Part shown: positions 5,972-62,749 of the stretch, in pieces
Position numbering within the stretch: position 1 is the stretch's first letter
Layout of the letters: each line of letters starts with the position of its first letter
NCBI GenBank assembly: GCA_964106915.2
Contig: OZ066918.1
Length of the DNA: 64,000 nucleotides
Source of the DNA: Podarcis gaigeae
Taxonomy: Eukaryota
Reading direction: 5' to 3' (one strand)
The notes under the pieces: model-generated
The model's input: only the letters and a program-made list of their open reading frames with translations
Told to the model about the DNA's origin: nothing
Databases searched by the model: none
Position numbers and translations under genes: made by a program

Positions 5972-6981
5972 ATGTCTGGGAAGCTTTAGAGATTTTACCA
6001 ATTTCTATTAGGTACAATCTGTAAACTTGGAAATACTTATCCGTGAGCTATTACTTCCTTCTGAATGTACATGCTATGCTTATTTCCTGCCTCTGGGATT
6101 TTGGTTGCAATTCAGCCATAGCTGTGACCAAACAGTCATGCGTATTAATTGGTAGATTTATGCAGGTTTGCATCCCCTTCACATCTAAAGATGAAGCCAG
6201 CCACTTCATCAGGGTTTGAATGAACATTTTAGTGTCCAATGCTCATTCACAATGCATCTGCATTGCCAGCACAAAGGAAAGTTTGTCATGCATGCAAAAG
6301 GCAGCTTCCATGCACATCTCTCTCTTGTTAAATCGAGACACTGATCTCTGAAAGCAAGCAGCCACAGTTAGAATAACTCAATAGAAGAAAGTGTGGCAAA
6401 TGAGAATTGCACAGGAATAGTTCACCAATAGCTAGCACCAAGATGTTTGGTAAAGACATCATGAATTGAAAGCATTTATGAAAAAATTGTGACCATGACA
6501 GACAACAGTACAATAATATAAAAAAGTAGAGGGTGGAATAATTTATTTAGCCCCACTTGAGAGCAAGACCTCCAACAAGTCTTTGCCAGTCCTTCTCTGA
6601 AGCTAGGGTAAGCCATTCTTCCACTTTCCACTATACTCTCACACAGGTATGCAACAAGGCACTAATTTGGGGGGTAAGGGAAGGAGATGAGGGTGATAAT
6701 AGAGAGGGAGCTCTTTCTTGTTTTATTATTTTCTTTTTTTGGAAACTGCACAAAAGCTGGTGCCCTGATGGAAGACACACGGCCAGATTTCCCCGCCCCC
6801 CCCTCAGAGCTCTACTGACACACCTCAATTGAATGGGTGCCAATTGTATCCAAATGGGTTGGCGACAAAACCAAAACATCCGCTAGAATTACTGGATTGG
6901 TAGTGCTTGTCTTCCGTGTGTGGGTGTACTTCAGCAGATTACAGCAGTACTTGTCTACAAGCTCTACTACTGAAAAAAATT

Positions 6982-7005
6982 CCACCTACATAGCCACCTA
7001 CATAG
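6982..7005 (-). repeat. Perfect 12-bp tandem duplication (CTATGTAGGTGG x2 on the minus strand) spanning the exon 11 donor
   Basis: The plus strand has ccacctacatag at 6982-6993 and again at 6994-7005. Confidence 0.95.
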
Positions 7006-7109
7006 TTATCCCGTGCGGACCAGCCGGGGTAAAGCTGCATGTGGAGCTGTCGTTCCTTTCTGGCTAGTTCATAATATTTAGCTTGTTCTTCTCTGGATAA
7101 TGCATGCCA
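7002..7109 (-). CDS. TCF7L2: TCF7L2 coding exon (exon 11 equivalent), second part of the HMG box: [36 protein letters not shown]
   Basis: Canonical TCF/LEF HMG C-terminal half. Acceptor ctctgcag|TGG, donor TAT|gtaggt; 108 nt, phase 0 to 0. Confidence 0.99.
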
Positions 7110-8617: not shown

Positions 8618-8777
8618 CCTTCGACCAAGGATTTGATTGATGGCTGCACTCTCTTTCAATGTGCATTCTGCTACAACTTTTGCTCTCATTTCCTTCATAT
8701 ACAACATAAATGCATTAAGAGGTTTCTTTATGTGTGGCTTCTTTTTCTCCTCTTCTTTTTTGGAGTCCTGATGTTTT
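8618..8777 (-). CDS. TCF7L2: TCF7L2 coding exon (exon 10 equivalent), first part of the HMG box: [53 protein letters not shown]
   Basis: Hand translation of the minus strand (missed by the ORF track) gives the canonical TCF/LEF HMG sequence. Acceptor catccag|A, donor AGG|gtaggt; 160 nt, phase 2 to 0. Confidence 0.99.
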
Positions 8778-62029: not shown

Positions 62030-62749
62030 GGCTTGACTATATGGGCTCAGGCAGCCCCACAGGTATCCTGGACCAAAACTTTTCATGGTTTTGTATATCA
62101 GCTCAAAAACCTTGAACCTGACACATTAGCACATACAGCAGCCAGCGCAGATACTTTATTAGAAGTGTCACATGCGGTCTGCCATCTTCCCCTACCAGCG
62201 TTCTTGCCGCTGTATTCTATGTCAGCTGGAGCTTCCAAAACAGGCCCAAGTGACATGGATATGCATTGTATGCTGTTGTATGCTGCTCATCTGACCTCCA
62301 GTCCGCCAGTCAGTCACTGTACTGCACACACACCAGCACAGCCAATCTGGTGTCTACACTGGTTTCTTTGGAAGAACCAGTGCCTTTCCCAAAGCTAGTG
62401 CTCCAAAACTTCCTATAAAACTGTTTGCTTAACTCTTCAGATTATCACGAGCACAGTCCAATAAAGCAACAGAAATTCTGAGTCGGGGGTGGGGTGAGCA
62501 GAGATGTCCTCACAAAGGCAAAAATGCATGTGTTCACAAACATTTATGGATACTTAAAAACAATGTAACATTATTATTTATTATTACTTACTAAATTTGT
62601 ATACCACCCTATTCCCGTAGATCTCAGGGCCTAAAATCACAATATAAGGCAGACATTATGCAGATATAGATAGATAACAGATAGATAGATGCAATTATTA
62701 TAATAGAGAATTCATAGAGCATCTATGCAACATTTGATGGTGATGATGA

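What the first reader, a model, noticed from the sequence alone, without database searches (positions are those of the whole stretch)
6982..7005. Duplicated splice donor at the end of the HMG box could insert VGGY before the basic tail
Seen: the minus strand reads ...GAT AAC TAT|GTAGGTGGCTAT|GTAGGTGGaa. A perfect 12-nt duplication gives two donors identical from -4 to +8 (GT at 7001-7000 and at 6989-6988). Using the second extends the exon in frame to 6990 and adds GTA GGT GGC TAT = V-G-G-Y. Established: WSARDNY-GKKKKRKR is essentially invariant in vertebrate TCF/LEF proteins, and the basic tail contacts DNA, contributes to bending and serves as the nuclear localisation signal. Inference: the two donors have equal U1 complementarity, so a lineage-specific isoform [16 protein letters not shown] may be made, possibly as the major form. 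That would be a third micro-insertion analogous to LVPQ and SFLSS, but inside the DNA-binding unit. I know of no description of such an isoform. It could also be a private allele or an assembly error.
Basis: partly seen in the sequence, partly recalled or inferred. Interest (0 to 1): 0.72.

Follow-up and report, generated by a model that had tools for sequence, protein, structure and literature searches.

The report
Ancient TCF7L2 splice switch placentals lost
A 12-base duplication at the end of the DNA-binding exon of the Wnt gene TCF7L2 gives two identical splice sites, and gene models from frogs, reptiles, birds and marsupials, but none of the placental mammals sampled, use the second to add four amino acids that likely retune how the protein grips and bends DNA.

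Summary
The duplication is real: the only non-simple exact 12-nt tandem in the window, at the end of the second HMG exon of TCF7L2, with the basic-tail exon 7.2 kb downstream, just outside the window. It is not private, lacertid-specific or an assembly error. Public gene models reading [16 protein letters not shown] occur in about 60 genera: caecilians, salamander, frogs, lizards, snakes, turtles, echidna, marsupials (VGGY), alligators and birds (VGSY), ranoid frogs (VRGY); many species have both forms. 0 of 56 placental proteins (21 genera) and no fish listed carry it. So this is a tetrapod-wide alternative 5' splice site, probably at least 350 million years old and lost in placentals, already in automated annotation but described in no paper I could search. 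I could not count junction reads, so isoform ratios and 'major form' remain untested. The NLS stays intact and invertebrate TCFs normally carry 3-4 extra residues here, so the likely effect is tuning of DNA bending or partner reach, not loss of function. Amphioxus has a separate +/-VQ variant at the same junction; the scan earlier noted a parallel optional exon in TCF7, not this event.

The parts
8618..8777 (-). TCF7L2 exon 10 (first half of the HMG box); left end exact, right end approximate
   Evidence: translation; tblastn of P0228 8782-8618
7002..7109 (-). TCF7L2 exon 11, short form (WHALS...WSARDNY), second half of the HMG box
   Evidence: 36 of 36 residues match LEF1 chain 2lef_A 41-76
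6982..7005 (-). exact 12-nt tandem duplication holding both donors
7000..7001 (-). upstream (intron-distal) GT donor: short isoform NY-GKKKK, intron 7210 nt
   Evidence: short form annotated in Podarcis muralis (P0234)
6990..7001 (-). variable 12-nt exon extension encoding VGGY
   Evidence: VGGY models
6988..6989 (-). downstream (intron-proximal) GT donor: long isoform NY-VGGY-GKKKK, intron 7198 nt
   Evidence: required by every insert-bearing model
6973..6979 (-). run of 7 U at +11..+17 of the downstream donor (+23..+29 of the upstream one); candidate TIA1/TIAL1-type element (inferred)
   Evidence: positional rule from PMC2964331 passages
6870..6989 (-). strongly conserved 5' end of intron 11
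   Evidence: 37 of 40 read-through codons give the same residue as in Anolis P0042
1..6989 (-). intron 11; continues 209 nt beyond the window to the basic-tail/NLS exon 12 at G000:C9:52079791-52079743

Best explanation
This is an ancient duplicated splice donor of TCF7L2 that lets tetrapods other than placental mammals make two proteins, with or without VGGY between the HMG box and the basic tail, and the longer one likely binds the same sites but with an altered bend, hold or reach. Shown: the two identical donors, the frame, and both forms in gene models across amphibians, reptiles, birds and marsupials. Inferred: one 12-nt slippage duplication in or before the common ancestor of living tetrapods; exact loss of one unit in the placental stem; 12 nt is too close for two U1 snRNPs, so each transcript picks one donor, with the U-run just downstream of the second donor likely favouring it through TIA1/TIAL1; the insert moves the basic residues four positions from the D-N-Y anchor that steers the tail into the major groove while leaving the three helices and the NLS whole.
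For:: 73 of 120 listed proteins read [17 protein letters not shown]; among 606 stored proteins 216 carry V-x-x-Y before GK[KR]KK (172 VGGY, 36 VGSY, 8 VRGY); by my count of names they span 62 genera (20 amphibian, 25 squamate, 6 turtle, 1 crocodilian, 7 bird, 1 monotreme, 2 marsupial). Both forms within one species: axolotl, three caecilians, Bombina, Spea, Rana, geckos, Podarcis muralis, turtles, Alligator sinensis, wombat (6 of 16), opossum. Placentals: 0 of 41 and 0 of 15, with a wombat VGGY query that favoured inserts. Two-copy read-throughs (P0042 Anolis; unnamed P0072, P0192) read NY-VG[GS]Y-VGG-x-FFS; unnamed single-copy ones (P0037, P0041, P0060 and relatives) read NY-VGG-x-FF-x in the same frame, as expected if exactly one unit went. 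Fish: none with an insert among the best 120; 6 of 6 fish-type TCF7L2 representatives with a tail lack it and a Goodea read-through starts differently. Mechanism: steric interference of U1 below about 45 nt (PMC3413131 passages); TIA enhances the closest upstream donor from 10-28 nt (PMC2964331 passages); LEF1 tail compresses the major groove and is oriented by a tail Asp (PMC11458547 passages); the insert follows residue 76 of 2LEF. Tolerance of a longer linker: 46 of 92 TCF representatives with a scorable linker have 3-4 residues there, the arthropod, hemichordate and amphioxus ones among them.
Against: No junction reads were counted for any species here; use of the second donor rests on automated gene models, which can be seeded by related proteins as well as by RNA. 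All queries carried VGGY, so the counts do not measure isoform abundance. The reference proteins chosen in a chordate survey for chicken, finch, Anolis, turtle and Xenopus all lack the insert (0 of 75 rows). Five of seven marsupial genera showed no insert in 11 proteins listed. The intron start is conserved far beyond the second donor, so the unit may be kept for RNA reasons rather than for the peptide. Placentals live without it. The U-run lies in the TIA window of both donors. No functional test exists; the AlphaFold model (mean pLDDT 48, no DNA) says nothing about the tail.
Confidence: 0.72

Rival explanations
1. The second donor is used, but VGGY is a tolerated, functionally neutral by-product; the sequence is kept because the intron start is an RNA element that helps a weak donor work.
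For: Conservation runs about 120 nt into the intron (37 of 40 codons vs Anolis); the first two residues are forced by the upstream donor; longer linkers are normal in invertebrates; placentals lost it.
Against: Tyr at the fourth position is kept in 216 of 216 inserts and the frame in all, while positions 2-3 vary; the same junction is alternatively spliced in amphioxus (+VQ in 9 of 15), which suggests repeated use of this linker as a dial.
Confidence: 0.22
2. The second donor is not used; the insert-bearing models are annotation carried from species to species.
For: No reads seen here; survey reference proteins lack it.
Against: Plus and minus models stand side by side in many separately annotated genomes and in several pipelines (RefSeq X isoforms, GenBank-submitted models such as P0040, P0068, P0205, P0290); each carries its own genome's variant (VGGY, VGSY, VRGY); an unused intronic copy would not stay in frame across tetrapods (inference).
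Confidence: 0.05
3. A recent lacertid duplication, private allele or assembly error.
For: The two copies are perfect, as young duplications usually are.
Against: Same two copies in Anolis (P0042) and the same insert in about 60 genera.
Confidence: 0.01

Closest known systems
WT1 +/-KTS (PMC11807054, passages)
   Same: Two nearby 5' splice donors at the end of one exon add a few in-frame residues inside the DNA-binding region; conserved across vertebrate classes.
   Different: 12 nt rather than 9; donors are exact tandem copies; HMG box and basic tail rather than zinc fingers; absent from placentals sampled; no ratio, binding change or disease shown.
TCF7L2 +/-LVPQ and +/-SFLSS micro-insertions (PMC2847248, PMC12166992, passages)
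   Same: Same gene; LVPQ is likewise a 12-nt alternative-donor extension; combined freely with VGGY in wombat and caecilian models.
   Different: [quoted passage not shown]
RefSeq/GenBank TCF7L2 isoform models with VGGY/VGSY/VRGY (e.g. XP_028586085.1 Podarcis muralis, XP_027707685.1 wombat, XP_038613482.1 echidna)
   Same: Exactly this isoform; the Podarcis model matches the window's gene.
   Different: Automated predictions only; the event, its age and its loss are not remarked on in any paper found.
Amphioxus TCF +/-VQ and invertebrate linkers (GYG[STA], GYVS, AVHG)
   Same: Extra residues at the same point; amphioxus models come with and without VQ.
   Different: Different length and sequence, no sign of the same duplication; in Saccoglossus (4 of 4) and insects the longer linker appears constitutive.
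Optional TCF7 exon between HMG box and basic tail (earlier scan note e1-9502692; Etheostoma P0477 here)
   Same: Splicing changes the HMG-to-tail distance in a paralogue.
   Different: A separate cassette exon of 16-31 residues, not a duplicated donor.

Membership tests
TCF7L2 gene | LVPQ and SFLSS motifs, TCF7L2-type HMG box, CRARF and CRALF exons, E-tail | tested here: met
Short-distance alternative 5' splice site (WT1 KTS-like) | two GT donors a few codons apart on one exon, in frame with a shared acceptor | tested here: met
   GT at 7001 and 6989, 12 nt apart, phase 0 acceptor
Short-distance alternative 5' splice site (WT1 KTS-like) | both forms present as transcripts in one species | tested here: inconclusive
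   both forms in gene models of many species, but no junction reads counted
Short-distance alternative 5' splice site (WT1 KTS-like) | conservation of the second donor across vertebrate classes | tested here: met
   62 genera from amphibians to marsupials; not in placentals or fish listed
Short-distance alternative 5' splice site (WT1 KTS-like) | isoforms differ in nucleic-acid binding or function | not testable with these tools
   needs EMSA, bending and reporter assays; no protein-DNA model could be made
TIA1/TIAL1-regulated variable-length exon | U-tract 10-28 nt downstream of the enhanced donor | tested here: inconclusive
   U7 at +11..+17 of the downstream donor but also +23..+29 of the upstream one
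TIA1/TIAL1-regulated variable-length exon | crosslinking and a ratio shift on knockdown | not testable with these tools
   no CLIP or knockdown data on hand
Lineage-specific recent duplication | absent outside lacertids | tested here: not met

The most novel reading that the evidence does not exclude
The gap between the HMG box and the basic tail is a splicing-controlled dial on Wnt transcription: tetrapods evolved a KTS-like, regulated +/-VGGY switch in TCF7L2 that changes DNA bend angle and which enhancers (C-clamp Helper sites, CDX partners) it serves, amphioxus and TCF7 reached the same dial independently, and placental mammals deleted the switch, fixing TCF7L2 in the short, tight-bending form.
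Probability: 0.3. Interest if true: 0.8.

Novelty: new variant of a known kind. Interest (0 to 1): 0.6.

Why it matters
TCF7L2 is a central Wnt effector whose splice catalogue was built in mouse and human, the one group that seems to lack this event, which explains how a tetrapod-wide isoform inside the DNA-binding unit could go unremarked. Frog, chick, axolotl, turtle and opossum work may involve a protein form mammals cannot make. Two identical donors 12 nt apart, held for some 350 million years with natural variants (VGSY, VRGY) and a natural deletion, are also a clean natural test of how close 5' splice sites are chosen and of how much the basic tail's position sets DNA bending.

Tried and rejected
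Structure: single-sequence AlphaFold of the Anolis read-through product (pLDDT 45) was the wrong substrate and uninformative; the aligned model of a VGGY isoform (pLDDT 48) puts the insert in coil after the last helix but is too weak to use. Literature: searches (130 papers held a term, 40 listed, none relevant, 90 not shown; 0 papers) found no description; one paper on terminal arms of HMG boxes was not held. Earlier-findings look-ups by place and by sequence were blank. Rejected: that the survey alignment's lack of inserts shows absence, because it also lacks the Saccoglossus linker that 4 of 4 database proteins have, so it looks trimmed; I rely only on its protein table. Rejected: arguing from the absence of stop codons in the insert, since such alleles would not be annotated. 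Left out of the insert count: P0046 (VGGYVVVYSIVG) and P0424, which look like mis-modelled joins, and tail-less read-through products.

Full report
Observation. On the minus strand the second HMG exon of TCF7L2 runs 7109-7002 and is followed by two exact 12-nt copies (7005-6994, 6993-6982) with GT at 7001-7000 and 6989-6988, identical from -4 to +8. It is 1 of 6 non-simple exact tandems of unit 10-30 nt in the window and the only one of period 12. The gene is TCF7L2; a Podarcis muralis model maps onto it exon by exon with the last exon 146 of 146 identical. The basic-tail exon lies 210 nt beyond the window's left end and starts in phase 0, so the second donor adds V-G-G-Y in frame. The two closest paralogous exons in the genome have single donors.

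Distribution. A search with the extended exon listed 120 of 5816 hits; 73 read [17 protein letters not shown]. A wombat query (120 of 4889 listed), a frog query (120 of 5136 listed) and three cluster look-ups (at most 15 members listed per cluster) extended this. Of 606 stored proteins 216 carry V-x-x-Y before the tail: 172 VGGY, 36 VGSY, 8 VRGY. By my count of source names they come from 62 genera: 20 amphibian (all three orders), 25 squamate, 6 turtle, Alligator, 7 bird, echidna, wombat and opossum. VGSY occurs in archosaurs and separately in Spea and several hyloid frogs; VRGY in ranoid frogs. Plus and minus models coexist in many species, for example wombat (6 of 16 with), Rhinatrema, axolotl, Euleptes, Alligator sinensis, Spea, and Podarcis muralis itself. 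Placentals: 0 of 41 proteins from 14 genera and 0 of 15 more (21 genera in all, Afrotheria included, Xenarthra not sampled). Marsupials are mixed: 7 of 30 listed, none in five of seven genera. Xenopus, chicken and tuatara did not appear in my lists. Because every query carried the insert, these counts show presence, not abundance.

Genomic state elsewhere. Read-through products reveal the DNA behind the donor. Anolis P0042 reads [17 protein letters not shown], the same two copies as the window, and 37 of the next 40 codons give the same residue. Unnamed P0072 and P0192 read NY-VGSY-VGGNFFSSRAC. Unnamed P0037, P0041, P0060, P0113 and relatives read NY-VGG-S-F..., one unit shorter with the downstream motif in the same frame; P0113 has an amniote-type exon 10. 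I infer these are placentals that lost exactly one unit; that human has one copy is recalled, not tested. Fish: no insert among the best 120, where a fish insert should have ranked high; 6 of 6 fish-type TCF7L2 representatives with a tail lack it (gar named), and a Goodea read-through begins differently. Coelacanth is known only from one survey row without insert; lungfish was not seen. The simplest history is one duplication in or before crown tetrapods (about 350 million years, date recalled) and one loss in the placental stem.

RNA. No RNA holder was listed and the contigs laid did not cross the junction, so use of the second donor rests on gene models. That NCBI's alternative models normally need aligned transcript support is established practice recalled, not checked here; they may also be seeded by related proteins. 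A short-form read cannot be mistaken for the long form, since the long form needs 12 extra matching bases (inference).

How it likely works. Splicing: with identical U1 pairing and 12-nt spacing the two sites cannot both be occupied; passages of PMC3413131 put exclusive use of the downstream site at 45 nt or more and ascribe the threshold to steric interference, so mixed use is expected here. A run of 7 U sits at +11..+17 of the second donor and +23..+29 of the first; passages of PMC2964331 say TIA1/TIAL1 act from 10-28 nt downstream and enhance the closest upstream donor, which would favour VGGY, although the run lies in both windows. The G-to-S change in VGSY likely alters position +7 of the upstream donor towards the U1 consensus (inferred from the codon). 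Protein: the insert follows residue 76 of the LEF1 structure 2LEF. Passages of PMC11458547 describe the LEF1 tail lying in and compressing the major groove, oriented by a salt bridge from the tail Asp; PMC8421206 (passages) shows the tail also binds CDX; PMC4154663 (passages) ties Helper-site spacing to the linker after the tail; PMC12166992 (passages) places the NLS wholly in the next exon. So VGGY leaves the helices and NLS whole and shifts the basic run and C-clamp by four residues. Loss of function is unlikely: 46 of 92 TCF representatives with a scorable linker have 3-4 residues there against 42 with a single Gly, including insects and Saccoglossus (4 of 4). I commit to tuning of bend, residence or reach; this step is untested. 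The AlphaFold models add nothing.

A recurrent site.

What is known. The isoform is in RefSeq and GenBank models, so it is not new as a sequence. I found no paper on it: searches. The mouse catalogues (PMC2847248, PMC12166992; passages) list alternative donors and acceptors only around LVPQ/SFLSS, and one reports a single band across this junction in mouse heart, as expected of a placental. The chordate survey PMC9303524 (passages, section 3.4, first part of section 3.3, search of 3 supplements, parts 7-8 of file 2) does not mention it and has 0 VGGY or VGSY in 75 and 105 rows. PMC12865960, PMC8651982, PMC5996498 and PMC6908431 (passages) do not either. Older frog and chick cloning papers in subscription journals, figures and bioRxiv supplements could not be seen and may show it. 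The closest analogue is WT1 +/-KTS (PMC11807054, passages): it works like that in architecture; whether it does in function is open.

Verdict. Observation confirmed; first reading partly supported: right about the isoform, wrong about its scope. A real, ancient, apparently unreported alternative donor inside the DNA-binding unit of TCF7L2, absent from placentals sampled. New variant of a known kind; interest 0.6.

Noticed in passing
window 6989-6870 (minus): The first 120 nt of intron 11 are strikingly conserved between this lacertid and Anolis (37 of 40 read-through codons give the same residue), and the first 30 nt or so also in bird-like read-throughs; likely a splicing element.
   Followed up: partly
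window 6979-6970 (minus): The U-run is followed directly by CAG, so it also looks like a 3' splice site 20 nt downstream of the second donor; no model using it was seen.
   Followed up: no
P0453, P0567-P0580 (Branchiostoma): Amphioxus TCF models exist with and without VQ after WSARDNY, a separate micro-splice at the same junction.
   Followed up: partly
P0477, P0509, P0460, P0456: Teleost TCF7-like proteins with 11-16 extra residues (EAGLSG...) between WSARDNY and the basic tail.
   Followed up: partly
PMC9303524 supplementary file 2: The published alignment shows Saccoglossus without the AVH linker that 4 of 4 database proteins have, so linker variation at this site may have been trimmed out of that survey.
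   Followed up: partly
window 12209-12244, 13133-13158, 45505-45542, 62266-62285, 39069-39100: Other exact short tandem duplications, all in introns as far as the exon map shows.
   Followed up: no
P0421, P0422, P0450 (unnamed representatives): Proteins with three to six tandem, divergent TCF-like HMG boxes, apparently from fish-type TCF7L1x-like arrays or fused gene models.
   Followed up: no
L012:904-973: A short interspersed repeat in intron 11 near exon 12 draws most contigs from the runs laid.
   Followed up: no
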